Of a stretch of DNA of 64,000 bases, positions 3,001-30,000 are shown in pieces. The notes beneath the pieces are model-generated. The model had not been told where the DNA came from. It saw nothing but the letters and a program-made list of their open reading frames with translations, and did no database searches. Made by a program: the position numbers and the translations under genes. Within the stretch, counting starts at the first letter, position 1. Every line of letters begins with the position of its first letter. The DNA is from an uncultured Planctomycetales bacterium (GTDB lineage: Bacteria; Omnitrophota; Gorgyraeia; Zapsychrales; JAHFFX01): assembly GCA_964612665.1 (NCBI GenBank), contig CAZTCI010000001.1:508896-572895 (forward strand), given 5' to 3'.

Positions 3001-6000
3001 TGTGAATATAGAAATTCTGACTTGCCATTGACTGGAAAGTTTATTCCACGCTGTTGGCTTGCCATCAAATGTAATGATTGATGGCAATTCGTAAGATTGG
3101 CCCTGGACTTCTGAAATCCAATATTGTCGTATCCGGGATTTACCGAGAAATGTTTCGTCACTTCCAACAACAACGAGTTCTTCGATCAGTAATATTTCGA
3201 TAAAAACTCCCTTATCTTTCGCATAATCCATAATAATAGCGGCGGCATTCAAGAGACAATCGCCATATTTCCCGCCGAGCAGAACAACCTGAATACCGTT
3301 TTCTTGGAGAAGGAGATCTAAGAATTTATAAATACGCTGACGGTCTTCTTTAGAAGATTCATGAATTTTTTCGGGCTTGGGTTCTTCTAATTCTTGAACT
3401 ACGATCCCACGCTTTTTTAATAAAGTAACCAAAGATTTAAAAATCGGCTGCATCTCTCTTCCCAAATCACCAGAAACGCTACGATAATCCCTAACTTCGA
3501 AAATTCCAATTGTGAGAGACCTGATTCGATTTATAGCTACAAAAGATTCTTGAGATGATGTGTATTGATTTCGGCGTTTTTGTCGTTGAATAATAATAAA
3601 CTTGCCAAATTCAAAGATAACTATGCCCAAAATAATACTAACCATTCCCACAGTAAATCCCAACATCCCGGCCGTTTCTTTGGTGGCCTTTAAATAAATA
3701 ACATCCGCCGATAAATCTTTATGACCACCCACATTGATAATCATCTGCTGTTCATACGCTAAAGAAAGCGCGGCCGCTTCGTTGATTTCAAATCCGGCGG
3801 ATTTGACCTGAGCGATCAGTTGGTCTTTAAGTTCGCCGAGCGGACCAAAGGATTCTTCAATCATTTCACCATTGAAGGAGACGAGATGTTTAGTTGCCTT
3901 AATAATATGTATTTCACCTCCATGGGAAAGGACGTTATAAACCTCAGATAAAACTATGGACGGCCTCGTCGATTCAAGCACGAAACTAAGCAAGGCCACA
4001 TCAAACGTCTCTGGCGCAAACGACAAATGCTGGGCGTCTCCATTCACCCAGAGACCATCGCTTACTGTGTGTTGCACGATGCGTATCTTTGAGAAATTAT
4101 TATCTAATCCAACAACGACATTCCCCTGTCTTCTTAACTTACCGGCGATGCCGCCGGAACCAGTACCTACATCCAAAATACGATGACCGCTCCCAATTTC
4201 CTGCAGATACCAAAACGAGAGCATAAAAGAATTATTAATAGTGTGCCGCAACAAATCCTCCAACGTTATGATGATGGGCTTACGCACGGCGGCAACAGAG
4301 ATCATTACTACAAGCAGCATCCATTTTATTAATCCGACGAACCAGATCATCGAAATCAAAGAATAAATATCTACATACAGCGAATTATATTGGCCTTGTT
4401 TATAATGTTCATTCGCACGCCTGATCAATTCTTCATGGATCCGATCACCAATCGGAATCATCCCTCGCCGGTGATTATCGGCCAAATATCCGAGCGCCTC
4501 TGCCAATGTTTGCGCGGCGATGCCGAAAAATAGGCGGACATCATTTGTGCCCATTATGCGGGCCGCGGGATTGGGCGCTGGGGGTTTTTCACGCGCGATA
4601 AACTGGCGGATTTCTTCCAGGACATTGAAGACTTCGGTGAGTTGTTTGAGTGTCTTGACCGATAAATGCGGTTGCGGTTCAACAAAGACAATTGAGTTGA
4701 CCAAGGCCAGCAGATGGTTTTGAATTTGATATGCATAATTATCCAGGTCTTTTATATTGGTCTGCTCGGCAACATGCATTTCATAATCTAAATCTTGATT
4801 AGGAAGATCAAGGATTTTGATCGACAACAGCCCTTTGTGTTGCATCTGTTCCAAAGCCGTGTACAAGGCGGCCATTGATTCCATGAAACCTTCACCCGAC
4901 GGAATATAAGTTTGATTCTTTAATTTCGGACCTTCGCTTCTCTTATCTTTCTTGGGCACAGACTCTTTCTGCGTGTAAGGTAAGAAAACGGCGCCTAATT
5001 TTTGGTTGTCTTTCTTGCCATAAAGGAAAAATTCAATCGCCAGCTGCGGAAAGACCCGGACCGTTTTGGGCAAAGCATCAATAGAAAATCTTTGTATTGT
5101 GACGTCCGCTTTCTTAATCGAGACATACTTGGGGTCCTTAAAGAAAATGACCGCTTCTCCATAATCCGTTGAAATCAGGAACTCAACCTTTTCGCCGGCT
5201 GCAAGATTTTGCTCAACCGCTTTCAAATTGATCGTCAATTCAGACTGGGAATTCTGTTCAAGTACTTCTTGTTGGGAGATCGGCTGTCGTCGAGGATGAT
5301 AAGAAGCAACGTCGAATGAACTTCCTTCCAGCAGCATAAGGATAGTTACGACCAAATAGATATTTTTGAAAAGTTGGAATGAAGATTTAAAGCGCGACGC
5401 GAAAACAGCAATTAAAACTAACACCGCGATAATTACCCAAAACTCTTGTGAATGAATAAGGGAAAAATTACTTCCCTCATCAACAGCATTCAAATCTCCA
5501 TTCTTGGCTCGAACTTCCCAAGTTTTATCAGCTTGTTGGTAAGAATTCTTTTGAATCGCCTCTCTAACTCTTTGAGTCAAATCATTTTCGTCGATGCCGC
5601 CAACGTCGATCCAATTCACGAAGGCAGCAATAATATGCTCCTGAAATTCCTCCGAACTTGCCGACATCCTCACTCCGATTTCCATAAATTCTTTGGCCGC
5701 CCTTTTGAGTTCTTCAATGGCTTGACTGCGTAATGACAAATCCTCGATGCTTCTCGCCAGCGTCCATCTCAGCTGATTGTTTAAATACCGTATGAACGTC
5801 TTTAATTTCTCCATATCTCCCTCGAGTAACTTAATTTTCCATAATTGATTGGCCAGCCGGCTGATCGTTTCAAATGCCTTTTGCCAGGTCTTTTCCGACG
5901 ATGAAAGCGAAAGACGCTCTGCCATTAAAAGCAAAGTCTCATCCAAATATTTCAACTCATTCGATGGATAAAAAAATAAATAGCTATCGTAATCATCCAT

Positions 6001-12000: not shown

Positions 12001-15000
12001 AACAGGGTGCATATAGCCGGGAGGTAACCATTGGGCCAAATCCTGCCACGTGGGAAGGATGAACAAATTCAACGCAGAATGAATAAATCCTCTTTTTAGC
12101 GATTGCAGTTTATCTAAAGAAACCTTCGAAGGGTCGGACAGCCATTGTTCATATTGCAGATAGTCATCTAATCGGGTGGCCAATTCATAACTCAAAATCT
12201 CCTCGACGCCAAACAAATGTCCTTTGGTACTACGGTTAAAATGGGTCGACACATACCACAGTTCGTCTTCTTTAAACCGGGCCACTCCTTCGACACCCGC
12301 AAAGATTTTCTTGCGTGCGGCCAGGAGATGGATCTCTTCTCTAAATAATTCATGCTCGGGATTGGTATGGTTTTCCCCGATTAAAAACAATCGCGGTGCG
12401 GATTCGGGTTTCAGGCGGACAGCGAGGAAAATTAATGTGCTCAATAAAAACGTCAGGTTTAAACTATTATCGAAACCATGGACGGCAATAAAGAAGCTCT
12501 TGAAATTTTCAGTCTTTTCCAATTTTCTTGACGACAATTCTTTATTGATCTTGTTGCGTTCTGATGACACATAGGCCAGGACAGCATCCAAAAATTTTCG
12601 ATGGATTGAATCTGTGGGTTTTACAATACGGCCATATTCCGCATATAACGATACAGCTTTATCAAAGGAAACTTCCCAACGGAAGCTGACAGTCTTTTGC
12701 CAAACAATGATTTGGCCCCGCCCGACAGATGACAAGAAGGCATTGGCTTTCTCGTCCGACGGGTTTTTCCGCGCCTGCAGCAAAACACACTCTCCATTAA
12801 ATGGAGGATAAAGAACCATCCGGTAAATAAAACCCAAATCACCCCCAAATTTTTGTTTCCTAAATAAATTTTCCAGTGCCTTGAAATGATGTTGTCGGTT
12901 GGAAATATCTCCCCCTCCTTTAGGAAGATATCCGGCAGCAGCATTAATCTTTGACCAAATTGCTTGAACGGCTTTTTGTTTGACATTAAATCTTTCCGCT
13001 ATCTGTTGATCACTTAGACCTTCAACGAAACCATATAAAATATTCAATTGTTTTTCCGTAAATACTGGTTTTGCCACATCGAATTTTGGAAACGGAGGCC
13101 TCCGGTCGACAAGTCCTAACTTTCTCGCTTTTTTGATAAGTTCCCTTCGCTCCGACGTCACAGCCAACACTTTATAAAGTCTCGAAATCTTTGAGCGTAT
13201 ATTGATTGCCGGTGAACTCAGCGCCTGGCCGATCTCAATCGTAGTATTTCCTTTATTAAGCAATCTTAAGATATGAAGTTCAAGCTCACTTAGGATGAAC
13301 GCATGTTTTTTTGCGAAAAGTTGTTTAGGTTTAACCAGCCGCTCAGACGATCCGAAAATCGCCACGCGGTATTCTTCATGCTGATTGAAAAATTTCCAAA
13401 GAAGATAAGGGTAATCATTATTAAAGTCGCGGGGTCCGCTTTTAATTTCCAGATTTAAAAGTTGATGAATTTGGCTCCTTGACTTGCGGATGGTTTCGGA
13501 CCCTGTCTCAAGCTGAGCGGCAATGTCCTTGTCATTTAATCCAGCATAAAGGCCTTTTAGAATGGCTATGTGTCGCGAAGAGAGTTCTTCGACGGACGCA
13601 CAAGATTGAACGCTGCGCGCTATGGCCGCGAGGACAGCGACAAAGATAAAACTGAAATTGGATAAATAATCCGATGGATTTGTAAGGATAAAAAAGTTAT
13701 GCTCTCGCTGCAACCCTGGCAAAAGACTTTGATTATCTCTTTTACGAAAGACTTCAAAGGGTTGAACAAACATAAACTGCGCGCCCGCTGTTCCCCTGCT
13801 AGTTTTAAAAACTTCACTTTGCCTAATCTGATTATTCAACGCATCGAGCGCTTCTTTAAGCGGTTGCGAGGTAATCAAATCTTTCCAGCCTCTTAAGAAG
13901 CCTATCTGTTCGAGCGCGCCAAAGATCCATGGTTCTTCATCAAACACAATAATGGTATCACTAGACCTTAAATCCCTTAATGTATTAAGCAGCCTAACCA
14001 CGACTGGTTGATCGATCCAAAAAGTTCCTTTTAGAATAACAGTCACACTTTCTTGTCCAGCTCGACGTAGAAATTCGACAATATCATCCAGCGCGTTGTC
14101 GATGTGTAACGTTTCCTTAGGGTAAATTCTATTTAGCAAAATTTTTTCTGGCTCCATAAACTGATTCACGAATGATTGCAGCTCCTTATAAGCTCTTTGC
14201 CGGTCTTCATGGTCATAGAGCCGGTCAATTCCGAGGACCAATTGGGCCGGCAGCTCCGCCACAAAAATGTCAACGCCTATTGCGGGATAAATCCGATACG
14301 GTTTTAAGAGACCAACCGCCGCTAAGACTTCTAACTCTCGCCGCCAGGCCTCGGCCAATGGCCCATAATCAACGCTTCCCCGCGATGCCAACCGTCTGCC
14401 TTGTTCTTCAACTATCATGGAAATCGCTTGAATCTGCTGGAGAATTTCTTCTTCGGAAATTATTTTGCCTCCGGTCCGTCTTGTGCTCTTTCGTAACGCT
14501 CGAACCAAAAATATAACCAGCGCGCTAATTGAAATTAGAGCAGCTGCGGCATAAATAAAACCAGTATCAACTAACATCGACGATGATTCTGGATATTTCG
14601 CGTCATAAGTTTTCGCTAATTGATACAACGTCCGCTCTACACGGTCTTTAAGACGGAGGAATTGCCTTTCTGATAGGGTCAATGTCACCATTATCTCTGG
14701 CCAGGAGCATGTCAGAATATGATTATTATTGTTTTTCTCAGCGAAATCACTTTGGCTTGTATCACTGACCGCATCCATAAGGACTTCCAGTTCTAATAGC
14801 GCTTTGACAATTATCTGACTTGTTTCTTCACCTCGACGATAAACATCGGTCATATCTTGTTTGGTTGGCTCCAACCTTTCATCCGTTGAAGGTTCCGGAA
14901 CATTTTCAAGTTCCGTCTCAAAATCAAAAACTTGCTGCTCCAGTTCTCTTCCCTTCTTAACAGCCCAATCCAAGACCGACGCTTTATAAAACAAAAGTAC

Positions 15001-18000
15001 AAATTTCGGCCCGCGCAAATTATGCTTTAAAATATTTAAAATCCTTTCGGCTTCTTCTTGCATCTGGACATAAGAAATCTGGTCTTCATAAATCTGACCC
15101 ATGAGTATCTCAATCAGCTTTCGTTGATCTACATTTATTCTTTCCTCTCTCCAAATTCTCTCGAGGATTGAAGATGTTCCCGACAACTGGACAACCGGCA
15201 TCAGAGTCTCATAAAATTGAAACACCCTCTTTATCATTTCTGATATTTTTTCTGTTCTTTGTCCTTCATGCTGAGGCTTGAACCAAATATCGACTTCCGA
15301 CGTCACAATAAAATTCTTCATCTCTTCGTAATTGGTATTGATCTTTTCTCGAAAACTCTCAATCTTTTCTAATATAACGTTAAAGACTTTGTCCCACCCG
15401 ATTTCAGCTTCGGTTTTGTTTTCATCGGCCGATTTTGTGTCTCCCTCTCGATCCCCTGCTATGCCTTCCGAATGATTTTCAGTGACGATTACCACTATCA
15501 CTGCTCCCACCCACAACATAAAAGAAATGACCGAGAGATCTAAGAAGGAATGCTCATTGTTCCGGTTTCTGTTTCTGAAATTTCTCCTCCGGCCTGATGA
15601 ATTAAATCTTTCTGTCAACCGCCGTAGATCCTCTAAGTTTGCACTCATGCTCAAACCGTAGTCATTAAAAATATCTCTCAGCGTTTCGGTGACTTTGGAA
15701 ATTCCAGAAAAATCGACCTCTTGGCTCAATGAAAGCATTTCCAAGTTATATTGCCGCAGCCAGCCCTGAAATTCCGCGGGGGTGATTCCACGGGATTCCA
15801 AAGCCTCCCAAAGCCGGAGTAATACAATTCCCATTTCTTCGATTGTTTCCGATTGCTGCCGTTCTATTAAATATTCTCCGCTTGTCGCGGGTTCTGGCAA
15901 TCTTGCCGGTTTTTTTCTTGTTTTTTCCGGCCGGGGAATTCTATGGCGAGGAAAGGCATTGTAAACAGCGCGCTGTATATTTACGAGTTCAGTCACTCCG
16001 CTGCTGATGGCATTTTCAGCCGCATGCAATGCCTTTGTGAATTTACTCCGGCTGGAATTGAAAGACTCGAGGAGCCATGGAATAACTTGTTGGTTCAAAA
16101 TTTCTTCACCACGGCGTCTGGCTTCTTCGCTTAAATTAACCTGATGGGATAAAGAAATTCTCTTATTCATCCAGCGGTCTGCGACGACTAATCCTAAGAA
16201 TTTATATTCAGGATACTCATAAAGATAAACACTGTAACGCGGCTCGTCTTCATTCAATTCGACTAACCGGTATGACCTGCCTTCGCCCCGAAAATCTTCA
16301 TAAATTCCTTCACCCAAATCTCTCAAAGAAAACCAGACAAACTCTCCATCTCTAATCTTGAAGATATCCTCCAGCCATCTTCTTTCTTTTGTTATCTGAA
16401 CGAAATACTTTCCGGCCTGCAATTCTTTGGGGGTGGAATTTTGGGGATTAGGTTTCCGGCGTGTGACTAATGTAAACCACAGCCATTCACTCTGATCGCC
16501 GCGTGCCGTAACGATTTTGGCTTTCAGGGAAACATAACCTCGAGTTCCCCATGAATACCAAAGATCAGCGAATCCGCCTAAATACGCGTCTCCGACGTAA
16601 ATTTTATCTAAACGGTAAAGACCTGTAGATACTCTTGGGTCAACAGCTTCAATCCCTTGGCCTTTCTTAATAATCATGTCGAAACCCTTGCGGTGAAAAT
16701 CAGCGATGTCTTTTCTCACATGACTACTCCGCGCTTTAAGCAGCTTTTGTTGCTTTCCTTGAATGCCCCAATAGTGAAGAATCGGGGAACGTTGTAATTT
16801 TCCGCCGATATTTTCTTCAAACCATACCGCAACATACTCGGAATAAACTGAAGACCAGCGCAGCCCTAAGTTTCCATAACGCTTTCGGACTGTAAACGTC
16901 GAATATCTTTTTCCAAAGAGCGGAATCTTTCCGTCGGCGGTAGTTTTAACATTCTCAATCTTAAGCAATTCATATCCTTGGGCAGACCATCGCTGCGCCA
17001 GTTCAAGACTAATGACACTGTATTGGCCCAAATTTTTTTCACGTTGTCCTTCGCGTTTCGATCCTTTAACGACCAGAATTAAACGCTGTTGACGATCGAC
17101 CTCATGCAGCACCATTTCCTGCTTCACTCTTCTCCATAATTTTGTCCACAACCGTATCCAATCTCGACGGCGCGGATAAATCCGTCCAATTTCAATATCA
17201 TTAATAACTCTGGCACTAATGTCTGCCAAAAGGCCGGCGTCTTTTTGGGACATTCCTAATGACTCCCGCACGGCTTTTAATCTCTTCCCTGGTTCTTGAT
17301 AGAAGTGATCCAACAATATCTTCCAGTCTCGCACCCCCCATCTTACCCGTGCCCCTTTTTCTAATCCCTTAATTTTGAAAGGAGTGGTATTGGATAAGTC
17401 AGCGATTTTTTGCGGCGAGAGTTCTAATATATTCCTGAATAACTTTAACTCTCGTCGGGCTTCTTCATACATTGTATTCAACAATAATGCCAAATCATCG
17501 GCTTTCCATCTGGCATTCTTTGACTTTAAATCATTAATTCTATTTCTACTGATATGCGCAAGAGCCGCGAGTTCTTCTGGCGACATTCGCAAAGCTTCCC
17601 GCAATATCTTTAATTGCCGACCGGCCTCTTTATGCAGTTTATTCAATATAATATTCCAACGGTCAACACTCTCCCTAACATGACCATTCTCTAAAGCACT
17701 AATGCGTCTGGCCCTAACCTTGCTCAAAGCACCAACATCTTTTGCCGTCATTCTCAAAGACTTTCTTAATACCTTTAATTGCCGATGGGCCTCTTCATGC
17801 AGGTCCTCGAAGTTCCATAATTCCGATCGGGACATGTTGAGTAATTCTCTGGATCTCTCTAACAGTTCAATCGATTTTTTATCATCTTGCCCCTGTCTTT
17901 GGGAAGAAGCCGCCATGCCAAGAATCACTAAGGATAAAACGGAGTATACCATCCATAAATTGCTTATAATTTGAACAACCGTTAAGATAATAATCGTCGT

Positions 18001-21000
18001 CGGTAAAATGATCAAGATTTGGGCAGATGAGGTTTTGTCGCGATAAGTCTTTTCAAATTTTCTAAGTGATTTCTCGGTTTTAGAAAGGACGTCATTATAT
18101 GAAACAACCATGAAGACCGCTGCTGATACAAACATCAACAACGGCAAAACAAAATGCCCAGTTCCCCGGACACTTTCCCATCCGGTAAAGATCGGCACCA
18201 GAAAGGAATTTTCCACCTCAACATCGGAAGTTGAGGTCATTTTGCTCTGATTTTGCAGGATCCGAGCTATCCGGGAAAGATAGAGAACATAAATAACGCT
18301 TGCGAAACCAATAAGCAACGTGAACAATTCTCCATTGAAAGCAATCATTCCGAAACCAAACAACTTTGTACGATCTTCCATGAATGTTTTAAGGAAATCT
18401 CTCATCTTTTCTTGAATTTGAGATCGAAAGATATCCTGAACCCGGCGAGGCATAATATTCATACGGGTGCCCGCTTGTTTCCATGCTTCAAATTTTTCTT
18501 TGGTGAATTCTGCCATGAGCCATTGATCTTCTTCGATGGTCTTCAACATGCCACCTTTTTGGGGGTCAAACATTTCACCCAAAACTCTTGAAAAGTCATT
18601 CACATCAAAAGCGACCATGCGACCCAGCTTTCCATCATGAGAAAATGTCAGACCGTAATTTTCTCGCCAATTATGAAAATCGCGATCAACCAGTCCATAT
18701 GTCCAAATCCGACGCGTCAAATTCGAGAATTCGTTTTGAATGTGCCGAAGCTCCATTTGCAAAGCACTCACCTCATCCCACTGTTTATGTTTCTCAGAAA
18801 TCTTTATACGACGGGCAATGGCATCCAGCACTTCTCCAACGGGATGCACGCGTTCTTGAACAATCACATAAGGGAAACTGGTAAGTTTCTCATCCACGAC
18901 AATCGTCAAGTTATTTAAAATAGTCAACGTCATGGCAAAAAGATGGCCCAAATGTTCTTTAACCAATAGGTATCCAGGCAACACTTCTCTCTCGAAGTCC
19001 ACGTCGGCCTTCGGGACCTTGATAATAAGATTTGGAAACGCATAGGAGTAATATGCTTTCATCAGCCCGCCTTGGTCCAAATAATGAAAGGTATGACCTC
19101 GTAGAATACCTTCAACGGTGGTGATTCGAATGTGGTCAAGGTGTTCCTGTAAAACAGTATCCTCTATTCCCATTCTACGCCCCCATTGCATCAACCTTTC
19201 AGGCCAGCCCTCCATATAATTGTCCAATAGCGCTTCCAGAAGAGCATCTTTTAAATTGTTCCTGATCCGACGTGATATAGGTTGGAGGTGGCGTTGAATT
19301 AGTTTTTGATATAACCATCTGAGTATTAATATTAGAGTAACAGCAGTAACTGCGATCAACACCCCTACACGCCACCCATGCATCAGCTCGCTAGAAATAA
19401 GCTGGGCGTTGGATTTTTCCGTTGTTACATCAACCTGCGGGGCCGAAACAGATGAAAACATTTCATCCACCAGCCGTTTGGCTTCCTTGGCCGCATCCAT
19501 GCTTGAACTCATTTTTCCCGAAAAAATGGAAATCTCTCGCGGACTTAAATGCTGAACCGTCGTCGGCCGCGCCGCATTCTGAACCGAACTCACCAGAAAA
19601 TCTTTGAGGGTAAAGATCGAACCAATATGGATCGGATTGAAATCGTGGAAGAATCGATGAGCTTCTTCTTTGATTTGGTCAAATGCCGTCACCGTTGGAT
19701 TCCAGATGATATCGCGTCCCAGTAAATCTTTATACTCATCGGGAATTTCTGGAAATTTGCCAACGTTGAGATGATGAATCGAGTGCTTCACATGAGCGAT
19801 AAAGTGCGCATTATTGCCTAAAGGATTGATCCCGACAAACGGCCCGTCCATAATCAAAATACTTTTGCCCCGGAATGCCGGAGGAAGAAGGACGACAGGC
19901 AACTCAAAAACTTCGAATTGATAGTTTTGCTGATTGGCCGGTTCCGCAATGAACCGATTAATATCGCTGTAAACGGCGTAGACAACGGCATCATAGTTCT
20001 TTAATTTTTCCGGAGTTGCCTCCTGAATGAGCACCTGCACATTGAATTCCTTAAGTTTATCAACGGAGATCTCCGCCAGCTTGCGGATGTTCATAAAGTC
20101 TTCCCCAACAAGCAGCGATAATCCCACAGAATTTTGTTTTAACACCTCCGGATACTTTGTCTCGTAAGGCAAATTAAAACGATTTAATAAAGTCAAATAC
20201 TGCTCGGGCGTAACCGCGCTTCCTTCCGCGGCGATTGCATAGTATTGTTCCAAACTCAAAACCGCTTCACCGAAGACACTCAAAAAGCTTTCACGAGAAT
20301 TAATGACTTCTTGGACAGTTTCTGGACTGCGCGGGTGATGATAGCCGCGATGCAAGCGGCGATCCCAATTGCCGGACACGCCGCCGAAGAGTTTGTTGCG
20401 TTCATACAAAGTCACATCGTATCGAGAATCTTGAGCAATAAACCATGCGGCCGTGATCCCGAAGATTCCGCCTCCGATGACAGCGACTTTGCGTTTCGAT
20501 GGAGCAACAAACGCAGAACGGGACGCCGAAGGAGGTATCCCGGCATCGGCACTCAAATCGAAATCAAAGTATGGCTCCTCAAGCATGTCATCCAAATCGA
20601 TTCCCTCGAAGACCTCTCCCGAATTATCATTAGATTGAACAACTTTAGGATTCACGGGTTCTTCATCTTTCCAATTCCATCCGCCCGCTGCGATCTTTTC
20701 ATCAAACAACCGATGCGGATAACGCATAATGACCGCGTTGACGCCGGCGAATCCGCCCATGCCGTCGTGAACATCGTAACGGCCGCGGATGATGTATTCG
20801 CGATTCCAACGCACCGCTCCGTTTTTCTCGTGATAGCCTTGCGCCGCGTCGGGACTGTAGGTCAGCAATTCTTCCAGAGCATCGCGCCAGGCTTGCAAAG
20901 CTTGAATGTAAATGACCGCAGTGCCGATCCCGCCGACTTGCTTGCCTCGCACGCGATAATGATCGACCCGCGGATGTTTGGCCACAGCCAAGACCGATGG

Positions 21001-24000
21001 AATCGGCGCTCCGACGGAAAAATTAAATCTGACATTGCCATCGTTGTCCTGGATTCCTTCTCCAGCGAGCGTAAAGCGATTCGTCAGCGTCTGAACGTGT
21101 TCCAAAAATGTGCCTCGAAATTCCTGCGCGTCACCATGCTGAATCAAGTCGATCATCTCCGGCGTTAGTTTTTTCTGAATGCTCCAGATCACCGCGCCGA
21201 TGTAACGTCGAGTCACTGCCGAGCGAATCATTTTCCCATCGGCATCCAACGGGTGTTCGAAGACCTCCGCGACCACATGTCCCGTTGGGTGATTCAGAAT
21301 CATGGAACGAATTTGACGCGGACGGATCTGTTCGTAGGGCTGATTGACCCACGCGTCGTTATGAACCTGATAAAGTTCAAGGACATTCTCCAACGTCGGC
21401 CAGCGATACACAATCGTAATCCCCTGCTCCGGACGCTCCTCGCGCACGAACAGCGCCAGGTCGTCCAGCGGAATCTGCTCTATATTAGGAAAGAAGCGCT
21501 GCAGGGCATGATTCAATGTCGTGGGGATGTCTTGCCTTTGGAGCGCCAGCGGCGACGGAGCGGTGGACTCAAAATTCTTGATGCGGAATTGATAATATTC
21601 ATCTAAGGTGCTAAACCACGTTGAGAGCGGATGGCGATTGTTCTGGCGCCGAGCCGCTTCAAGAAGGCGGGAAGTTGAGCCAGAGAAGAACATCGTCGTC
21701 AAATGGCCGTTCAGATGGAGAGCTCTGGTATGAAGGATGGATACAACAAGGACTAAAATAATAGCCAAATTCAAAATCATCATCCATCCCCTGTCGTCAA
21801 AACCGTGGATGGCGAGGAAGTAGGTATGGGTGTTAGAATCGGCCGGACGAGTTACATAAGAACTCTGTCTAAGGACGGTCGCAATCAAAGCGAAGGCAAC
21901 GACAATGTATATATTAGAGAAGATACCTCGAACCTTTTTCTGATCTCCTCCGAACGCCTGCTCCATCGTTTTAGTCTCGAGACGGCCGGGATTGAATGGC
22001 GTCCGATCTTCCATCACTTTCCTTAGAATTCTCAACCGCCCGCCCAAGGCCAGTTCGCGGGATTGTCTGGCCGTAATGACATCCACATCCTGATCCGTAA
22101 ATCCGCGGGTTTGGAAATTGGAAATAGGATGCGCGTTAAAATTCTTGAGACGGGAATATTGTGCGTCGGTCAACCGGGCCTTGGCTTCATCCACATAACG
22201 GCCGGACGCAATCATTTGATCGGCTAATCCTTGAGGAGCAAAGACCCCGAATCGGGTCGGATGCTCCCAAACAACAATGATCACTCCCATTGGAAGACTC
22301 GCTAAAAATTCTTCTGTCCATCGCCGCGTCGATTCCAAGGGCGAAATGGTTCGATCGAGTTTGCGCGTTAGCCAAATATAAATATATTCATAAGCAAATT
22401 TTAAAAACACAACGTCCGCCGGCTTTATGTCTCGAACAAACGCTCTCATTTCATCTCTCGACATCAAATCACTCATATGATGATGAAGAGGCGCCAACTT
22501 TTCCAATCGCAGAATCGGATGACCGACGATCCCGACCAATTTTTCTTTCAGTCTTTTAAAACCCATCGTGATATCCCACTCACTCAGCCGATTGTCCACA
22601 GTTGTCATGGACGAAACATAATAACCGGCAAATAAATCAATCCCGGAAAGGATGTTGTGGAGTTGCGTATTGTTACGATTGAAGATCCCGATGGCGGAAA
22701 GGAGTTGTAATTGCAGGAAATAAATTCTGACTTTGATCGGAATCACGCTGTGTACGGTGAGCTGATCCTCACCGAGCCGAATCTGCTCTTCAATTTTACT
22801 GAGGATTTTTCGAACCGATTTTAGTGAATGGAGGAATTTAAATTTGAAAATGGAAACGACCATGAGTAACACGATGGCCAAATTCAAAATCATCATCCAT
22901 ACCCCGTCGTCAAAACCGTGAGTGCCGAGAAAATAGGCTTTGGTGTTGGAATTAGGAACCATGCACGGCATGTTCCACCCGATCATCATGTATCGGTTAA
23001 AAACAGCGATATCATGGTTCCCATCAGGTTTGACACCTCCAGTCATGTGTGTTATTCTTCCTTCACCGGAGGGGGACAACCAATGCATAAACGAAAGGAT
23101 AAAAACATGAACGCCATCAACATGACGGACATCGTCCGCAAGTCGATGCAAGAACTTGTTGTCCCTGAGTTGAAAATCTTGCAGGGTGATGTTCAGAGTC
23201 TCTAGAATGACAATCTTGAGATCAAGGCTGATCTTCGGATCCTCAATAACCGTGTCGACAATCTGGAAAAATCTTTGAACAGCCGGATGGATTCTCTCAA
23301 CAGCCGGATGGACTCCCTCGAGAAAAGGCTGGATAACTTGGATAAAAGGGTTGACGGCCTTGAAAGGCAAATTCATAGCATGCGCGAGGATTTTAAGCTC
23401 GCGCTCGATATTCATGAGCGGCTCACTGCGCTTGAAGTCAAAATTTCTCATCATAATTAGGCAGTGGTTTTGTTGACGAATCATCGCCGGGCCGATTTCC
23501 TCAAAGTTATATAAAGGAAATCGGCCCGTTGTTTTTTGGTTGCTGTATACGATTTTATAGAACGCCGTCACTGTCGAATCCCAGATCATATCGCGCCTAA
23601 GTAAGTCTTTATATCCCATCCCACCGGATTGACCATACCAAATGAAATAAACCAATGCCCATAAAACCAAGGCCACATCAATTCCAACCATGTATGATAA
23701 ATATGCCGATTGAACGCTGTTTTTATTTTGATCTGGCTCAAACGCAAACAAGCGCACGGACAGACGCGAATTCATATTCCTTAAAAGTTCATTTTGCTCA
23801 TTTATGATTTTTTCCAAATTCAACCGTCTCGCGATGGCCGCCGCGCCCACCAGTGCGACAATAACTTGGATCTCCCGTTGACCGGGCAGCCAGTTTTCCT
23901 GAAAATGCAGACGATTCATCTTCTTGATCAATTCTTTCTTCAAATTTAATTTTATTGATCGAATTTTGCCGGCCCGGGACGACAGAGGCACGTCAAAACT

Positions 24001-27000
24001 TTTGACTTCCACAAAAACTAATCGGTGGTTAGAGTCGATCAACACAGCGTCGATTTCGAACGACTTGTTTTCTCGATGGGGATCAGCGATTTCTTTATTC
24101 AAACTCACTACTTTGAAATGAAAATCCATCAGCAACTTGTGTACCGCCCGCAACTCATTGAGCGTGCCAAATCGTAACCCTTTTTTGATGCGGTAAAGAG
24201 CTTTCTCGATACCGTCCTCATTTAGGAATCTTTCCACCAACGAGGCCTCATTCACATTCAACGTCGGTTTCACCTCAGACCAAAGTTGTTGAATGTACGT
24301 TCGCCTGTCTTTCTGATGCTGTTTCCAAACCCGCTGATAAAATCCGCCATCAATCCATCCGTGCTCTAACGATAATCCCAGCCATCGCTCTTGTTTTTCC
24401 CACCGAGAAAAGATAAGCGGCTGGAAGAATTCTCGCGCCTGCAAAAAGGCCTGCACATCTTCATTGAGAAGCTCGTCGGAGTTCTTTAAAGGAGAAACAG
24501 CGCGGCTCAATTCATGCCGCAACAATAGCTTGAGCCATAACCGGCCGGTGCCAGGTTGCAATTTATTGAACATCTTCACAATCCTCTCGACCTGCCGGTG
24601 AATCAAAATGACGTGGTGTTGCGGATCATAGTCAGACATCAGGTCGATCAGTTCTCCCGTTGCTAATGGACACAGAATATGGTCTGCCCACAAAACCGTT
24701 GTAACCTTGGCCAAACGACTGTAATCCAAATTAAAGCTCTCAATGTCTTTAACAGCGATATCAAACCTTTCCGGAAAGTAAAACGCCTTCCCGTCGGAAA
24801 ACTTCAATGTAAAATGTTCTCGCCAGTTTCCTTCGGCCAATGAAACTCTCTGCGTATCTTCGTCGGTTGACGATGATAAGGCTTGTTGAATGTCGTTGAA
24901 CAACGCGTCCGTCGCTCGCAGCGACGGGCCTGATGGCGTCTTTAAATAAACCCCTTCACCTTCTTTAATCAACTCCGGCGCAACAGCCTCAGGCCATATC
25001 GCCCAGTGCCGATGAGACATCTGCACAGCCGCCGCAAGAGCGGCAGACATCAAAACAAGACTTACAATGCCAGCCCAATGCCAAACAATCATTACAACCG
25101 CCACAATTAAAATAATCCCCATGAATAAACTTTGATTTTGGTCTTCGTTCTTTTTATCGACGGATGCGCAGGATGCGTTATGACCGTTGCCATCCGCCAA
25201 AACCAATTTGTGCCGGCGCCAAAATTCATCGAGCTTCTCGGGATAGTTCACGACCGTTTTTACATCCAGCAGTGAGAATTCTTTGAATAAACTAAAGGCC
25301 ATATTGACCAATTGCTGTTCCGTGACTGGAAGTGACGGTTTATAAAAACTTAAAACCGCGTGTTTAAGCATCCCTTTTTTGCCGTCGGTCGCAAATCCGG
25401 ATTTTTTCTTCATATCCGTCAGCGCCTTGCGGATCGCCCAAATTAAATCCTGGTTGTTTTCAAAAGCCCTGGCTTCTTCCGTCGATATAAATACAGCCTC
25501 CTGAATAGGAACGATGATTGTTCCATCACCGTTCTCAAAAGGTCCTGTCAGTTTAAACAATTTCCGTTTTTGATCGACCTCATAAACCCTGGCCATCGCA
25601 TAAATATTCGTCATCACATAAATTGCCCATTGCCGGCTAATCAAATCTAAATCTTCCGCTGACAACCATAAATGAATAGGGAAAGACGGCTTATGTTCGT
25701 GGTAGCCCATCGAAATTTTATTGGGATTGCTTCTGCCTAGGATAGCGGCCGCTTGTTTATGGGTGATGCCGGGTAAAAAGGCTTTAATCAAACGGAAGCG
25801 CTCACGCATCCCCATCCATTTATCTAAGACCCTCAACGACGGCTGGCCGCTTGCAGCTCGTCGCTGGTTAATTTCCACCACCCAGTGTGCGATTGTTCGT
25901 TTAGGAATATTTGTCATCTGCGCGAGCTCTTCGGCCCAGGTGATGGTCAATTGTTCAGCCATGGATTCAACTAACTCTTGGCCCTGGGCATGTGTTGTTT
26001 GTGGACGTCTTTGTGATTGCTCAACCCATCGCTCTAAGAAAGCAGTATCCTCGGCGCTTAAGGTAATTTTTAAAATAGACAACAGGTTTTGGACAGCTTG
26101 CGGTTTCGGAATAGTAAAGCCTCTTTCCCATCGGTCGTATCTTGCTTTGCGGATTTCCATTCCGGGCATAGCATTGAGCATAAAGTCAAGCTGACGTCTC
26201 GATATAGTTTCGTCCTGGCGTTCTTTCTCGATGAGTTCGAAGACGCGTTTCAGGAAATCTCTGTATGCCGCATCCCGGGTCCACGGCAAGTTGCCGCGCG
26301 TCAATTCCACAACAGCCATTACCCAAAAGATACCAAGCCCGAGCAGTCTAACGCCCCAACCGCTCCCCAACGTCTCCCATCCAATCACCGCCTTCGCTTC
26401 ATGATCGGATTTTCTTTCATCGGAATCAACCGGCGAAATTGAAAAATGATTGGCGTTTATCGATGGGCCATTTTCAAAATCCAAATACTGAATAAACTGT
26501 TCAAATCGCTTCCAGAAAACAATGGTGACATCTATATTCTTCGTCGGATGATTGGCTTTGATAGTCCAGAATCCGAAGGCCGTGGTCCATTTCAATGACT
26601 CGATAATTTTAAAATCGCGGGACAAAACATGCTGCAAATGGTAGGCATCTTCCATAGAAAAATGCGCCATTTTTCCAAACTGATAAATGGGCCCTTCAAA
26701 CGGCAGATGGAATTCCCAATGTCCTTCGGAACTTTTCGGCAAATTCGCAAAAAGATCCGCCATTTGCGCACTCAAACATAAGCTATTATTACCGCCCACC
26801 ACAATAACATGGTGCGCGTAAGGCCATAGCTCGTCGGTTAAGTACTCTGATTTATAACCCGCATGACTTAAATAACTATCATCTCCGTTCAGATTCTCAC
26901 TGACATTTTCAAAAACGGCAGTGATCCTGGGATTCTCTAAAAGCTTATTGATAGACGAAGCGGCTGTCTTCAAAGGATCAAACTCTTCGTTAGTATGAAC

Positions 27001-30000
27001 GATCACCAACGTCCATGGGTTAGGAACTTTTTTAGACAAATGCGCGGACAAATGATCTGAAATGGTTTCTTCCAGCGCACTCTGCCAGATATATCGTTGA
27101 GAACGACCGGCAAGAAGTTCGATTCTTCTGGATGAAGAAACGATATTTATATTAAGAAAATCAACATTCTGTTGCCTGTGGATTTGCTGTGCCGCCAGCT
27201 GGACAACGCTATGTAGGATAAGGCCGGCTAACGCGGGTTGATTGTTCAGTTTCAAAAGACCGACGACAAATCTGCGGGGAAGATAAATGACGGGGCCATT
27301 GTCATTCCATTCCGTCGCAGCGACAGCCACATGACGCCAGTTGTCCGCATAAAGGAATGGTTGGCTCTCATCTTCGCGATCGCGAACCAAGATCAATTGA
27401 CTTCGAAGAAGGATGTCAAACAAATCGCTCGCCGCGACGAAATCAAACAATCCTCCCCGAATTTGATCCCACGGGATATTCATCAACGCACTTAAACTCG
27501 CGTCGAGAATTGAGCGATGCAACTCCATGTGAGTTAATAACGGTTCAACATAACGTTCATTCCTTCGACGAACTTTGTCGATTAGTTCCTGGATTTTCTT
27601 GTACTCTATATTCCATGCCTTCACTAACCTGCCGTTCTCATGATTTGTCATGACACCTGCGGCGGCCATCAGCATGAGGGAAGCCGTCACCGCAATGAGA
27701 CTAAAAGACCAACCACCGCCGAGCTGCTCCCATCCCAACAAAGCCTTCGCTTGATGATCTTTGTGATTAAATCTTTTATCGTCTGAATTAACCAGGGGCG
27801 TAATATCTTGAGCCATGGGCAGCGGCTCGATATGATTTCCGTTCGTGGATTTTTCTCTTGGCTCCCGTAAAAGTGAAGCCTCGTAGCCAATACCTCGATC
27901 TTTTCCATTATTTGGCCATAAACGATATTTCTGCAAGAACGAAGGGTCCTTAAGACTCTTTTTCAAATTTTGAATCATGATTCGACTCTTTATATCGCTT
28001 TTGAGAAATTCATTCCTTAACCTCAGAATGATATTCACAAACTGCTGTTGAGTTACAAGGACTCTTGTTTCTTTAAGCATCTGGTGTCCATAATATTTTA
28101 TGGCCATGCTGATGAGTTGCTTGATATCAGACTTTCCACCGTATGAATTCTCACTATATTCCTCAATAACTTTTCTGATCGCTTCGATCAAACCTGGATC
28201 ACCTTCCACCCGTCGATATTCTTCTTCTGTGATATAAACTGCATTCTCCTCGGGAAGCAGCATGACATCACCATTCGCAAACGGGCCTTCTATTTTTAAA
28301 AGACCGTCCCGCTTGGCTATCACGTGGCCAACTTTATAATAACGGTGTTCGACATATAAAACATCATTCTTAACGGGGTTAAAGCGGCGTCCAGGCATTT
28401 GAAAACGCCACAGAGGATATAAATTCTTTTCCAATTTTGAGATGATCTTAAGACTTATTGGATAGAGCGTATTCTTGCGAGGCAATCTCGCGCCACGGAT
28501 TTTCGCAACGGAAACTTCACATATCTGAACAAGACGCTTATCGGAGATCTCCATTATTTTGGGATTGTCCATAAGGCGATTGAGCGCTTCGCGCGCCTCG
28601 ATGAGTTGTTTAAGCACCGGCCGCATCTTGGCGATCACGTTTTCAGATGGAGTGGCTTTTTGTAGACGATATAGCTTGGCATCACGAGAAACTTTGGAAC
28701 GCTGATTGATCTCTGAATCCGTAATGCCCAGTTGGTTGGCTTGCGTGAGCAGTTGAACCAGTTCTATTCGAAGTTTTTTGAGATCTGGCCTTTGTTCTTT
28801 GAAATATTCCGTCAGGGCCATAAGCAATTTAGAGATAGTCGATGCGTGCGGCAACGTCCTATTTCCGGCTGCAATCATACTGATCGTGGTCTGATCCACC
28901 CCAGATAATTTTGCCAAACTCTCCTGATTTAATCCTTGCTCAAAAGCGTTCGTCATCAAGACGAGTACACTTCTAAATTGTTCCGCCGGAGATCCTGCCA
29001 TAGGCAGTCGATCCAATTTACTTTCAATCGATGCAATCGTATCTCGCCTTAATTGCGCCGGAGCCTCTCCTAATATTTTGCGCAGCGTTTTGTCATCAAT
29101 ACCCAATCTCGCCCGGATGGCCCGTCCCGAATATTGGCCTTCCTTATTAAGTCTCTTGATGTAATTCTGAAGGTCAACGGGAAGAATCACCATCACAGCC
29201 AATCCCGACAGGATTTTTAATACAATTATTATTCCTTTGAGGCCGATCAAAAGCCACGTGGATTCGAGGGTGATCGAGGAGAGTTTCTCCGTGTTTTCGT
29301 TTGAAGATTTTTTCCCAGGTTTGTCTTCATACTGCGCCACTTCTTTTAATTTCGACGCCAAACGATCAATATAGTCCTGAGCCTCGTCGGTGACGACGTA
29401 ACCCTGAGCTTCCAGGACATCCAAAACTTCCAGCACAAAAGCGGCCATCATCAAATAATGAATCAAATTTCTACTTTTCCAAGAAGACCATTCTCGAGGA
29501 GAATTTTCTTCTACATAGATCGGTTGAGGAATCGTTTCAACACGGCCTCCCACTTCTCTCAATTGCGAATGAATATTCTCAATCTTAGGAAGATAATCAA
29601 CATACCGCCACAACACATTTTCTTCTGTCTCGATATCCACCCCTTCGCGGAAATAATTCCAGGCCGTCACGATCATTTTCTGATCATAATCTCGCTTTGA
29701 AACGATTCCTTCCCGTCGAAAAACGTACTCACGATCAATCGTGCCCGAAATCATATGCATATAATACAGATCAATATATCGTCGGCCGCCGTTATTCCAT
29801 GGTTTTAAGTCCAAGTTGAATCGTTGATTGGCCTGGAAAATAACCTCGGGGTTAATCAATGTTCTATACAATAGAAGTTCCGTACCAATGGAATCGATGG
29901 TTCTCGTATCCGTGTCGATGAGTATAATTCGGTCTGTTTCCGGAGATAAAATCCCCTCGTCGTGCCAGTATTTGACAAAAAGGACCGCTTGAAGTGAATC

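What the first reader, a model, noticed from the sequence alone, without database searches (positions are those of the whole stretch)
23030..23460. A third nested plus-strand unit: a promoter-equipped small coiled-coil gene with an internal in-frame TAG.
TTGACA-N17-TATTCT, GGAGGGGG and ATG (23083) give MHKRKDKNMNAINMTDIVRKSMQELVVPELKILQGDVQSL, which stops at TAG (23203-23205). The same frame then continues with perfect heptad repeats (NDNLEIKADLRILNNRVDNLEKSLNSRMDSLNSRMDSLEKRLDNLDKRVDGLERQIHSM...) to a second TAG at 23460. This is either one ~125-aa coiled-coil protein with a recent nonsense mutation or stop-codon readthrough, or two adjacent small ORFs. It is also codon-aligned antisense to the giant frame and stop-free in antisense. 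It lies right next to a duplicated linker module (HGFDDGVWMMILNLAIVLLM at ~22.9 kb, with a copy at ~21.75 kb).
Basis: partly seen in the sequence, partly recalled or inferred. Interest (0 to 1): 0.6.

Follow-up and report, generated by a model that had tools for sequence, protein, structure and literature searches.

The report
Broken coiled-coil gene inside giant gene
A small coiled-coil gene with its own promoter and terminator lies backwards inside a giant (over 21,000-codon) bacterial gene that reads straight through it; this copy carries a premature stop, but relatives sit the same way inside other large genes and inteins, which has not been described in the papers I could search.

Summary
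The plus-strand unit at 23030-23540 has a near-consensus sigma-70 promoter, a Shine-Dalgarno site, an ATG, a 125-codon frame with an in-frame TAG at 23203-23205, a terminal TAG, and a 14-bp hairpin followed by a T-tract.

It is one gene, not two. The parts before and after the TAG both align to single proteins of a widespread, uncurated family of 76-160-aa single-helix coiled-coil proteins. None of 41 homologous loci has an internal stop. The terminal TAG falls at the family's conserved C-terminus, so TAG terminates here. The internal TAG is most likely a nonsense mutation. It is synonymous (Leu CTA) in the host frame.

The host is a stop-free minus-strand frame across all 64 kb (at least 21,333 codons, about 77 TM-like segments, weak SecA-like domain), resembling Omnitrophota giant genes. 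Two toxin-antitoxin units (BrnT/CopG and VapB-like/PIN) are nested in the same way.

The unexpected result is that 11 other family loci are also embedded codon-aligned antisense in long ORFs. These include a 6,363-aa ORF and intein splicing domains. There the coiled-coil frame is under purifying selection and the host frame is merely kept open.

Function of the protein is unknown.

The parts
23030..23058 (+). Sigma-70-type promoter: -35 TTGACA (23030-23035), 17-nt spacer, extended -10 TGtTATTCT (-10 hexamer at 23053-23058)
   Evidence: 10/12 match with TG; one of only 4 exact TTGACA-N16-18-TAnnnT sites on the plus strand, 3 of which precede nested units. The same TTGACA-N17 promoter precedes family members in 13 of 47 loci, mostly the nested ones.
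23068..23075 (+). Shine-Dalgarno sequence GGAGGGGG, 7 nt before the ATG at 23083
   Evidence: Read directly from the sequence. One search finds the SD plus start downstream of the promoter.
23083..23205 (+). N-terminal 40 codons of the coiled-coil gene, ending in the premature TAG (23203-23205). Carries the family N-terminal motif (..DIVRKSMQELVVPELKIL..).
   Evidence: Translation. Alignment A1 (invariant Pro28). The TAG is the complement of host-frame CTA (Leu), read.
23206..23460 (+). C-terminal 84 codons of the same gene plus the terminal TAG (23458-23460). Uninterrupted 3-4 heptad pattern and the family C-terminal motif REDFKLALDIHERLTALEVKISHHN.
   Evidence: Full HMMER search. Alignment. 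Local HMM search E = 3.5e-31 (the model included this sequence). 21-nt tandem repeat at 23278-23319.
23488..23537 (+). Intrinsic-terminator-like element: 14-bp perfect stem (23488-23501 / 23515-23528), 13-nt loop, then TTGTTTTTT. On the minus strand there is no U-tract after the stem, so it should not terminate the giant transcript (inference).
   Evidence: Fold (-31.2 kcal/mol, z = -3.96, 0 of 200 shuffles as stable). (pair I2, one of the two longest perfect inverted repeats in the window).
1..63999 (-). Host: one stop-free reading frame of 21,333 codons that runs off both ends of the window. It is a giant multi-domain, multi-TM ORF whose translation passes through the antisense of the coiled-coil cassette as a ~170-aa loop between two TM-like segments (about 23709-23632 and 22917-22820).
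   Evidence: 0 stops. (translation). (HTH_3, DAO, Transketolase_N/pyr, Methyltransf_11, GerE, Response_reg, HATPase_c, Sigma70_r4_2, and weak SecA_DEAD / P-loop_SecA). (about 77 TM-like segments). (no Pfam hit in host residues encoded by 22501-24000).
22850..22952 (.). Copy B of a 103-nt direct repeat (host: SNTKAYFLGTHGFDDGVWMMILNLAIVLLMVVSI), immediately downstream of the cassette in the host direction. Copy A is at 21737-21839. Spacing is 1113 nt, which is 371 codons.
   Evidence: (family D1, 81% identity).
10709..11325 (+). Sister nested unit: TTGACA-N17-TATGTT promoter (10709-10737), BrnT-like toxin (10801-11067) and CopG-type antitoxin (11071-11325), antisense and codon-aligned to the giant frame
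   Evidence: (BrnT_toxin 9.2e-7; CopG_antitoxin 5e-9).
38147..38842 (+). Sister nested unit: TTGACA-N17-TATACT promoter (38147-38175), VapB-like small ORF (38176/38200-38391) and PIN-domain toxin (38375-38842). It is bracketed by 200-nt direct repeats (37709-37908 and 38915-39114).
   Evidence: (PIN 9.5e-9).

Best explanation
The unit at 23030-23540 is a complete, self-contained expression cassette. It has a sigma-70 promoter, a Shine-Dalgarno site, one ~125-codon gene and an intrinsic terminator. The gene belongs to a widespread, uncurated family of small proteins that fold as a single long alpha-helix and presumably form oligomeric coiled coils.

The cassette lies antisense and codon-aligned inside a giant minus-strand ORF. 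That ORF has at least 21,333 codons, many TM segments and a weak SecA-like domain, and resembles Omnitrophota giant genes. The giant frame reads through the cassette's antisense strand as a meaningless ~170-aa loop between two membrane helices. Only that frame's openness is preserved: the cassette contains no TTA, CTA or TCA in register.

The internal TAG is a premature stop. It most likely arose from a point mutation of GAG, CAG or AAG. Such a change is synonymous (Leu CTN to CTA) for the giant gene and therefore invisible to selection on the host. This copy is thus probably a recently inactivated pseudogene that makes at most a 40-aa peptide. Its promoter may still drive a ~470-nt antisense transcript.

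Shown here: the anatomy, the family membership, that it is a single gene, and that host-frame openness is not chance. Inferred: the direction and recency of the mutation, loss of function, and that the cassette arrived by insertion into a permissive loop and was tolerated because it was in frame and stop-free. The protein's biochemical function is unknown.
For: Anatomy.

Family and single-gene status:
- One search gives 27 hits at E<=1e-10 and small full-length homologues at 40-56% identity.
- One search shows both halves aligning to single proteins, with invariant P28, R101, A107, E112, R113 and E118, and with C-termini that coincide with the terminal TAG.
- One search finds 143 members at E<=1e-8, all annotated 'hypothetical', from Omnitrophica, Planctomycetes/Brocadia and Parcubacteria.
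- Searches find no curated family.
- AlphaFold2 of homologue P0055 gives one helix over residues 3-88, pLDDT 93.6.

TAG is a stop and is unique to this copy: 0 internal stops in 41 homologous loci. Other decayed copies exist: L046 is frameshifted and L039:11354-11470 is a fragment.

Host-frame openness is not chance. Synonymous resampling with the host's codon usage gives P(no antisense stop) of about 0.22 x 0.004 for this gene, and about 1e-7 for all six nested ORFs together.

The host frame is a real gene: 21,333 stop-free codons with in-frame Pfam domains.

The host translation of the cassette region has no Pfam hit and antisense-like codon usage.

Sister nested units have homology and identical promoter architecture. 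0 of 66 other antisense ORFs hit Pfam.
Against: - No orthologous locus was found, so TAG versus a sense codon could not be compared in close relatives.
- Apart from the TAG the gene looks intact: all family-invariant residues are present and the promoter, SD and terminator are intact. Low-level readthrough, a strain polymorphism or a sequencing error at 23203 cannot be excluded.
- The insertion boundaries and an empty site were not identified.
- There is no expression evidence for either strand.
- The source organism is unknown, so its genetic code and tRNA set were not examined.
Confidence: 0.62

Rival explanations
1. The gene is functional, and the internal TAG is decoded by programmed readthrough, a suppressor tRNA or pyrrolysine, giving the full 125-aa protein.
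For: Everything except the TAG is intact, including all family-invariant residues and the expression signals. The heptad register continues across the TAG (read).
Against: The same gene ends with TAG exactly at the family's conserved C-terminus, so TAG must terminate efficiently here. 0 of 41 homologous loci have an in-frame stop. No tRNA gene lies in the window (weak evidence). The other nested genes end in TAA or TGA, which does not bear on the question.
Confidence: 0.1
2. The TAG is a sequencing or assembly error, or a minority allele. The real population carries an intact gene.
For: There is a single-base difference from GAG, CAG or AAG. The rest of the gene shows no decay.
Against: Nothing in the sequence suggests an error: it is not in a homopolymer. 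Decayed copies of this family occur elsewhere.
Confidence: 0.13
3. There are two independent small ORFs: a 40-aa peptide, plus a 61-84-aa coiled coil with its own start.
For: A TTG at 23275 opens a 61-aa ORF.
Against: Both parts align collinearly to single proteins. There is no SD before 23275, and the only nearby ATG (23207) is out of frame.
Confidence: 0.04
4. This is a chance antisense ORF created by the giant gene's codon usage. The coiled-coil look would then be the mirror image of a host-strand amphipathic segment, and no plus-strand gene ever existed.
For: The codon-aligned antisense frame is generically the least stop-prone. The plus frame 0 has the fewest stops of the five non-host frames. 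The longest antisense ORF in the window (307 aa, 20245-21168) is such an artefact and has no Pfam hit.
Against: Strong homology to free-standing genes whose antisense frames are closed. In nested relatives the substitution pattern shows purifying selection on the coiled-coil frame and not on the host frame: differences by codon position are 15/5/35. The promoter, SD and terminator are conserved. The host-strand translation contains periodic prolines and has no homologues.
Confidence: 0.01
5. The nested cassette is retained for a function that serves the giant gene. For example, antisense transcription could tune or block giant-gene expression, or the coiled-coil protein could be a partner of the giant protein. 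On this view the TAG copy still works at the RNA level.
For: The family recurs inside giant ORFs: the window, L039 and L027. It has a strongly conserved consensus promoter facing the host gene's transcription. One free-standing Omnitrophica member sits in a T2SS/pilus/Tra-like operon, and the giant-gene paper reports T2SS and pilin loci as conserved neighbours of giant genes.
Against: The hosts are unrelated to one another and include inteins and a HEAT/Hint protein. Free-standing members have heterogeneous contexts. There are no expression data.
Confidence: 0.1

Closest known systems
Giant genes of Omnitrophota (SecA_DEAD-type / 'Archaeovorin'-like; West-Roberts et al. 2023, bioRxiv 10.1101/2023.11.21.568195; bioRxiv 10.64898/2026.06.07.730766)
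   Same: The host is a single ORF of more than 21,000 codons with many TM segments, sparse and divergent domains, and a weak SecA DEAD / P-loop region. The papers describe numerous TM regions and divergent SecA DEAD domains as typical.
   Different: Neither paper mentions antisense, nested or opposite-strand genes. Here three promoter-bearing antisense gene units lie inside the ORF. The taxon of the window is unknown. No sequence homologue of the 1,200-aa host segment around the cassette was found.
[quoted passage not shown]
   Same: A separate gene overlaps an ORF that must stay open. The embedded gene is under purifying selection while the host frame evolves freely. The authors interpret it as secondary invasion of a mini-intein. 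Relatives of this coiled-coil gene sit inside intein splicing domains, apparently at or near the slot between the N- and C-terminal splicing blocks.
   Different: There the ORF is on the same strand (+2 frame) and encodes a nuclease that explains mobility. Here the gene is antisense and codon-aligned, carries its own promoter and terminator, and encodes a non-enzymatic coiled coil. The window copy is not in an intein.
Antisense overlapping genes in bacteria (own knowledge: e.g. nog1/citC, laoB and asa in E. coli O157:H7)
   Same: A protein-coding ORF lies fully embedded antisense in another protein-coding ORF.
   Different: Those are thought to arise de novo by overprinting an older host gene. 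Here the embedded gene belongs to an old, widespread family, and it is the host frame that reads through foreign DNA.
Rickettsia palindromic elements and other in-frame insertions translated as part of host proteins (own knowledge)
   Same: A repeated or mobile DNA segment is tolerated inside ORFs because it is in frame and stop-free, and it is translated as an extra loop.
   Different: RPEs are short, non-coding palindromes. This cassette carries a complete gene with a promoter and terminator on the opposite strand.
Type II toxin-antitoxin modules as stabilisers of large dispensable arrays (own knowledge: superintegron TA cassettes)
   Same: BrnT/CopG and VapB-like/PIN units with their own promoters are embedded in a very large, deletion-prone locus.
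   Different: They lie inside a translated ORF and not between cassettes. The coiled-coil unit has no toxin or antitoxin signature.

Membership tests
Unnamed small coiled-coil family (alignments A1/A2; members such as P0055, P0035, P0003) | N-terminal motif h-h-Q-[DE]-h-h-[VA]-P-E-h with a near-invariant Pro | tested here: met
   Window residues 20-30 (KSMQELVVPEL) align. Pro28 is invariant in A1 and nearly invariant in A2.
Unnamed small coiled-coil family (alignments A1/A2) | C-terminal motif R-[ED]-[DE]-[FY]-[KH]-[LI]-A-[IL]-x-[IL]-H-E-R-[LI]-A-x-[LVI]-E-[AV]-[KR], ending 3-6 residues before the stop | tested here: met
   REDFKLALDIHERLTALEVKISHHN followed by the stop. R101, A107, E112, R113 and E118 are invariant. 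Homologue C-termini coincide.
Unnamed small coiled-coil family (alignments A1/A2) | Single long alpha-helix / heptad coiled coil, 76-160 aa, with a variable number of internal repeats | tested here: met
   Heptad pattern read. More than 100 coiled-coil Pfam families hit weakly. AlphaFold2 of homologue P0055 gives one helix, pLDDT 93.6. The window protein itself was not modelled.
Unnamed small coiled-coil family (alignments A1/A2) | Uninterrupted reading frame | tested here: not met
   In-frame TAG at codon 41. 0 of 41 homologous loci have one. The window copy is therefore filed as a disrupted member.
Omnitrophota-type giant gene (host ORF) | Single ORF of tens of thousands of codons | tested here: met
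   21,333 stop-free codons, truncated by both window ends.
Omnitrophota-type giant gene (host ORF) | Numerous transmembrane helices | tested here: met
   About 77 segments with Kyte-Doolittle mean >=1.6 over 19 residues. This is a crude predictor, not TMHMM.
Omnitrophota-type giant gene (host ORF) | Divergent SecA DEAD helicase domain | tested here: inconclusive
   SecA_DEAD E = 2.6e-4 (20.8 bits, cutoff 24.6). P-loop_SecA E = 6.4e-4 (19.8 bits, cutoff 27).
Omnitrophota-type giant gene (host ORF) | Encoded in an Omnitrophota genome | not testable with these tools
   The source contig was not found in genome contigs, metagenome contigs or the protein collections.
Programmed TAG recoding / readthrough gene | In-frame TAG conserved among homologues | tested here: not met
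   0 of 41 loci have an internal stop.
Programmed TAG recoding / readthrough gene | TAG not used as an efficient terminator in the same genome or gene | tested here: not met
   The gene's terminal TAG is at the family-conserved C-terminus.
Programmed TAG recoding / readthrough gene | Suppressor or Pyl tRNA and its machinery present | not testable with these tools
   No tRNA in the window. The rest of the genome is unavailable.
Intein-embedded gene (as in relatives L032 and L045) | Flanked in the host frame by intein splicing blocks | tested here: not met
   No Hint or Intein_splicing hit in host residues encoded by 15001-30000 or 22501-24000. The flanks share no similarity with the Hint-containing hosts.

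The most novel reading that the evidence does not exclude
The coiled-coil cassette (consensus promoter plus small gene) may be a selfish or mobile gene adapted to live antisense, codon-aligned and stop-free inside translated 'permissive' ORFs. These hosts are the loops of giant beads-on-a-string proteins and the dispensable slot between the splicing blocks of inteins. Selection on the host keeps only the frame open, while the embedded gene stays under purifying selection. On this reading giant genes are safe harbours that accumulate functional antisense genes, including toxin-antitoxin modules that could in turn stabilise the giant gene against deletion.
Probability: 0.45. Interest if true: 0.85.

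Novelty: new variant of a known kind. Interest (0 to 1): 0.72.

Why it matters
Giant bacterial genes are currently treated as simple, if enormous, single-strand coding units. This window shows three horizontally acquired, promoter-bearing gene units on the opposite strand of one such gene, with the giant frame purged of stops across all of them.

The same small coiled-coil gene is embedded in the same way in at least 11 other long ORFs from unrelated hosts, including intein splicing domains.

If this is general, several things follow.
1. Gene callers systematically miss real genes inside giant ORFs. A caller that forbids long opposite-strand overlaps would drop them (inference).
2. Parts of 'giant proteins' are translated antisense filler and not functional domains. 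This matters for structure and function mining.
3. The arrangement is a natural system for studying two-strand coding constraint and convergent transcription inside a gene of more than 64 kb.
4. Inteins and giant-protein loops emerge as safe harbours for selfish genes.

The internal TAG illustrates a built-in fragility. Host-synonymous Leu CTN-to-CTA changes create nonsense codons in the guest gene.

Tried and rejected
- Orthologue comparison for the TAG codon led nowhere. A 580-aa host segment found nothing in genome contigs. A 1,200-aa host segment had no homologue among 5.8 billion proteins. Family-profile scans of genome and metagenome contigs returned only distant relatives, at most 43% identical, and not the source. 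Exact look-ups of the window's PIN and CopG proteins found nothing.
- The first word-indexed search with the read-through product gave one weak hit. The family appeared only with the full HMMER scan.
- Curated families: Pfam, PHROGs and NCBIfam gave only generic sub-threshold coiled-coil matches.
- A viral origin is not supported. No relatives were found in IMG/VR.
- No RNA family and no tRNA were found.
- The sense-versus-antisense codon-usage log-likelihood flags the cassette. It also flags TM-rich host segments, so it is not specific.
- I looked for a conserved neighbour gene that would hint at function. The contexts are heterogeneous: a T2SS/Tra-like operon, the gap between rplU and rpmA, next to EPS genes, and between opposite-strand genes.
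- I looked for shared host flanks or intein remnants around the window cassette and found none.
- A fold search was not run, because the model is a single helix and matches would be meaningless.
- The 307-aa plus-strand ORF at 20245-21168 and 65 other antisense ORFs were rejected as genes. None hits Pfam.
Full report
**1. The observation**

- The promoter is TTGACA (23030-23035), a 17-nt spacer and TATTCT (23053-23058), preceded by TG. It scores 10 of 12 and is the best promoter-like site in 20-26 kb.
- GGAGGGGG lies at 23068-23075, 7 nt before the ATG at 23083.
- The frame translates exactly as quoted, with TAG at 23203-23205 and TAG at 23458-23460.
- The minus-strand frame whose codons are aligned with this plus frame contains no stop codon anywhere in the 64,000 nt, which is 21,333 codons. 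'Codon-aligned antisense to the giant frame and stop-free in antisense' is therefore literally true.
- The duplicated linker is a 103-nt direct repeat at 21737-21839 and 22850-22952, 81% identical and 1113 nt apart.

A 14-bp perfect hairpin (23488-23501 / 23515-23528) followed by TTGTTTTTT begins 28 nt after the stop codon. Its free energy is -31.2 kcal/mol with z = -4, and no shuffle folded as well. It is one of the two longest perfect inverted repeats in the window. On the minus strand no U-tract follows the stem, so I infer that it terminates only plus-strand transcription.

**2. It is one gene of a real family**

The word-indexed protein search gave a single weak hit. The exhaustive HMMER scan with the 84 residues after the TAG found 1,694 proteins at E<=1e-3 and 27 at E<=1e-10. 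Among them are many small proteins (83-155 aa) that align to almost the whole query at 40-56% identity, and whose C-termini coincide with the query's end.

Aligning eleven of them with the read-through product (A1) gives three results.
- The pre-TAG segment carries the family's N-terminal motif (..DIVRKSMQELVVPEL.., Pro28 invariant).
- The post-TAG segment carries the family's C-terminal motif (REDFKLALDIHERLTALEVKI, with R101, A107, E112, R113 and E118 invariant).
- The TAG falls in the length-variable coiled-coil middle.

So this is a single gene interrupted by TAG, not two ORFs. After the TAG there is no in-frame start with a Shine-Dalgarno site.

A profile search found 143 members at E<=1e-8. 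All are annotated 'hypothetical', and the named ones come from Omnitrophica, Planctomycetes/Brocadia and Parcubacteria MAGs. No Pfam or NCBIfam model covers the family; only generic sub-threshold coiled-coil hits appear. AlphaFold2 on an intact homologue with a 43-sequence alignment predicts one continuous helix over residues 3-88, pLDDT 93.6. This fits an oligomeric coiled coil.

**3. What the TAG is**

None of 41 homologous loci has an internal stop. The window gene's own terminal codon is TAG, placed at the family-conserved C-terminus, so TAG terminates translation in this organism.

On the host strand the TAG is CTA (Leu). The one-step neighbours GAG, CAG and AAG correspond to host CTC, CTG and CTT, which are also Leu. 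A mutation that is silent for the giant gene therefore creates a nonsense codon in the guest gene. Because the guest is rich in Glu, Lys and Gln, it is full of such vulnerable sites (my inference from the sequence).

Other decayed copies of the family exist: L046 is frameshifted and L039:11354-11470 is a fragment.

I conclude that a recent inactivating mutation is most likely (about 0.6). Sequencing error or polymorphism (about 0.13) and readthrough (about 0.1) remain alternatives, because the rest of the gene and its signals look intact and no orthologue could be found.

**4. The host**

The minus-strand frame encodes a protein of ordinary composition with about 77 TM-like segments. Sparse but genuine Pfam domains lie in frame: HTH_3, DAO, Transketolase_N/pyr, Methyltransf_11, GerE, Response_reg, HATPase_c, Sigma70_r4_2, and weak SecA_DEAD and P-loop_SecA.

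This matches published descriptions of Omnitrophota giant genes, which have numerous TM regions and divergent SecA DEAD domains. A later preprint reports a SecA_DEAD architecture cluster. Neither paper mentions antisense or nested genes. The taxon of the window could not be established.

Across the cassette the host translation (..NPFIQVIQPFLEGVHPAVERIHPAVQRFF..) has periodic prolines and no Pfam hit. The 1,200-aa host segment that includes it has no detectable homologue. The stretch forms a ~170-aa loop between two TM-like segments.

**5. The host frame is open by selection, not luck**

I re-drew synonymous codons for the guest protein from the host's own codon usage. This gives P(no antisense stop) of about 0.22 for the first 40 codons and 0.004 for the last 84. 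The product over all six nested ORFs in the window is about 1e-7.

**6. Two sister units**

The plus strand holds only four exact TTGACA-N16-18-TAnnnT sites, against 1.2 expected from shuffles. Three of them lie immediately upstream of an SD and start of a homology-supported unit:
- BrnT toxin plus CopG antitoxin (10709-11325; E = 9e-7 and 5e-9).
- The coiled-coil gene.
- A VapB-like ORF plus a PIN toxin (38147-38842; E = 9.5e-9).

As a control, none of the 66 other plus-strand ORFs of at least 70 aa hits Pfam at 1e-3. The 307-aa ORF at 20245-21168 is an ordinary antisense artefact.

The VapB/PIN unit is bracketed by 200-nt direct repeats 1206 nt apart. The coiled-coil unit adjoins 103-nt repeats 1113 nt apart. 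Both spacings are multiples of three. This suggests that in-frame segmental duplications of linker-plus-module units provide redundant places where foreign DNA is tolerated (inference).

**7. The unexpected generalisation**

Family-profile scans fetched 49 independent loci. In ten of them the antisense frame is open across the gene and far beyond it on both sides, or to the contig ends. These are L005, L016, L024, L027, L032, L037, L038, L039, L045 and L050. In every case it is the codon-aligned frame. L058 adds an eleventh.

The hosts are as follows.
- L039 is a complete 6,363-aa ORF at 32% GC, with many modules separated by 'DGG' motifs.
- L027 has at least 2,928 codons, with Sigma70_r2.
- L050 carries HEAT repeats and a Hint module.
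- In L032 and L045, and more weakly in L037 and L016, Pfam's Intein_splicing model aligns across the antisense cassette. In L032 the E-value is 2.1e-18, with host residues 6-295 matched to profile positions 19-155. The cassette therefore appears to sit in the region between the N- and C-terminal splicing blocks.

The hosts share no sequence outside the cassette.

Selection acts on the guest frame.
- Between the nested copies L039 and L038 the differences fall 15/5/35 on guest codon positions 1/2/3. There are 27 guest-synonymous changes against 19 non-synonymous, whereas only 9 of 46 changed codons are synonymous in the host frame. L024 versus L016 gives 24/9/48. The guest protein is thus under purifying selection, and the host frame is only kept open.
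- In AT-rich hosts the chance of zero antisense stops is 0.0004-0.002. A free-standing Omnitrophica member has eight TTA/CTA/TCA codons in frame.
- An exact TTGACA-N17 promoter precedes 13 of 47 members, mostly the nested ones.

**8. Mechanism**

Shown: the cassette anatomy; the homology; that it is a single gene; selection for host-frame openness; and guest-frame purifying selection in relatives.

Inferred:
- The cassette entered a permissive loop of the giant protein. It survived because, in the antisense codon-aligned register (the least stop-prone frame), it was or became stop-free and in frame.
- The giant protein is translated through it as filler.
- In intein hosts the filler would be removed by splicing.
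- A sense-orientation insertion would be more likely to bring stop codons into the host frame, which may explain why all three units are antisense.

[quoted passage not shown] That ORF is on the same strand, and the authors interpret it as secondary invasion.

The coiled-coil protein's own function remains unknown. Its genomic contexts are heterogeneous: a T2SS/pilus/Tra-like operon in an Omnitrophica MAG, the gap between rplU and rpmA, and isolated positions. There are no viral relatives.

**9. Verdict**

The local story is mundane: a guest gene knocked out by a mutation that is silent for the host. The setting is not. Bona fide, promoter-bearing genes sit antisense inside a giant ORF that is kept open through them, and one family recurs in this way in unrelated large ORFs and inteins. 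I did not find this described in the literature available here.

I rate it a new variant of known kinds (overlapping genes, and in-frame selfish insertions), with interest 0.72.

Noticed in passing
window 1-64000, minus strand: The entire window is one stop-free frame of 21,333 codons that runs off both ends. It has about 77 TM-like segments and scattered ordinary cytoplasmic-type domains: HTH_3, histidine-kinase ATPase, receiver, transketolase/E1, methyltransferase, FAD oxidoreductase, GerE, sigma-70 r4, and a weak SecA-like region.
   Followed up: partly
window 10709-11325 (+): A BrnT-like toxin and CopG-type antitoxin pair with its own TTGACA-N17-TATGTT promoter, nested antisense and codon-aligned in the giant frame.
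   Followed up: partly
window 38147-38842 (+), repeats at 37709-37908 and 38915-39114: A VapB-like ORF plus a PIN-domain toxin with a TTGACA-N17-TATACT promoter, nested antisense. The PIN frame is offset by one base from codon alignment. The unit is bracketed by 200-nt direct repeats (84% identical, 1206 nt apart) that encode a TM linker module of the giant protein.
   Followed up: partly
window ~23550-23620 versus ~19690-19770 (minus-strand translation): A short fragment just upstream (in the host direction) of the cassette, YKDLLRRDMIWDSTVTAF, resembles part of the FAD-oxidoreductase module at 19.7 kb, YKDLLGRDIIWNPTVTAF. This suggests patchwork duplication inside the giant gene.
   Followed up: no
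window ~44200-45700 (minus-strand translation): Two adjacent ~300-aa modules with an HTH_3 domain are clearly paralogous (..GEWSQDINEWKHQMQLLYVQALRASREE.. and ..GEWSRDIKQWKQQIQLLYAQALRASREE..). This is an in-frame tandem duplication within the giant ORF.
   Followed up: no
L039:1145-20236 (-), metagenome contig Ga0190363_1000022: A complete 6,363-aa ORF at 32% GC whose modules (PGM/PMM-like, HAD-like, subtilisin-like and others) are separated by recurring 'DGG' motifs. This is reminiscent of double-glycine protease sites and hints at a polyprotein. It carries an intact antisense coiled-coil gene (9989-10291) and a second partial copy (11354-11470).
   Followed up: partly
L032:1891-3687, L045, L037, L016 (host strand): Intein splicing domains (Pfam Intein_splicing up to E = 2e-18) are interrupted, in frame and without stops, by the antisense coiled-coil cassette between the N- and C-terminal splicing blocks. 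In L045 the insert is flanked by 72-nt direct repeats (93% identical, 519 nt apart).
   Followed up: partly
L046:5577-5940: A frameshifted copy of the coiled-coil gene with an intact TTGACA promoter. This is another decaying family member.
   Followed up: no
L001:7166-20250 (Omnitrophica MAG GCA_023485205.1): A free-standing family member (P0187) lies directly after T2SSE/T2SSF genes and before PilS-, TraF-, TraH-, TraG-, TrbC-, TraL- and TraE-like genes. The giant-gene paper reports T2SS/pilin loci as conserved neighbours of giant genes.
   Followed up: no
L056:5684-6688: A more distant family member (P0204, 130 aa) sits between ribosomal protein genes L21 and L27. From my own knowledge, that slot is often occupied by the L27-processing protease gene in other bacteria.
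   Followed up: no
L054:2161-6281 and L059 (Omnitrophica-type contigs): The coiled-coil gene, with its TTGACA promoter, sits antisense in a ~1.1-kb gap between two minus-strand genes of an ECF-sigma/FecR-containing gene row. Its codon-aligned antisense frame is open within the gene. This may be a formerly nested state, or a state in which the host ORF is split.
   Followed up: no
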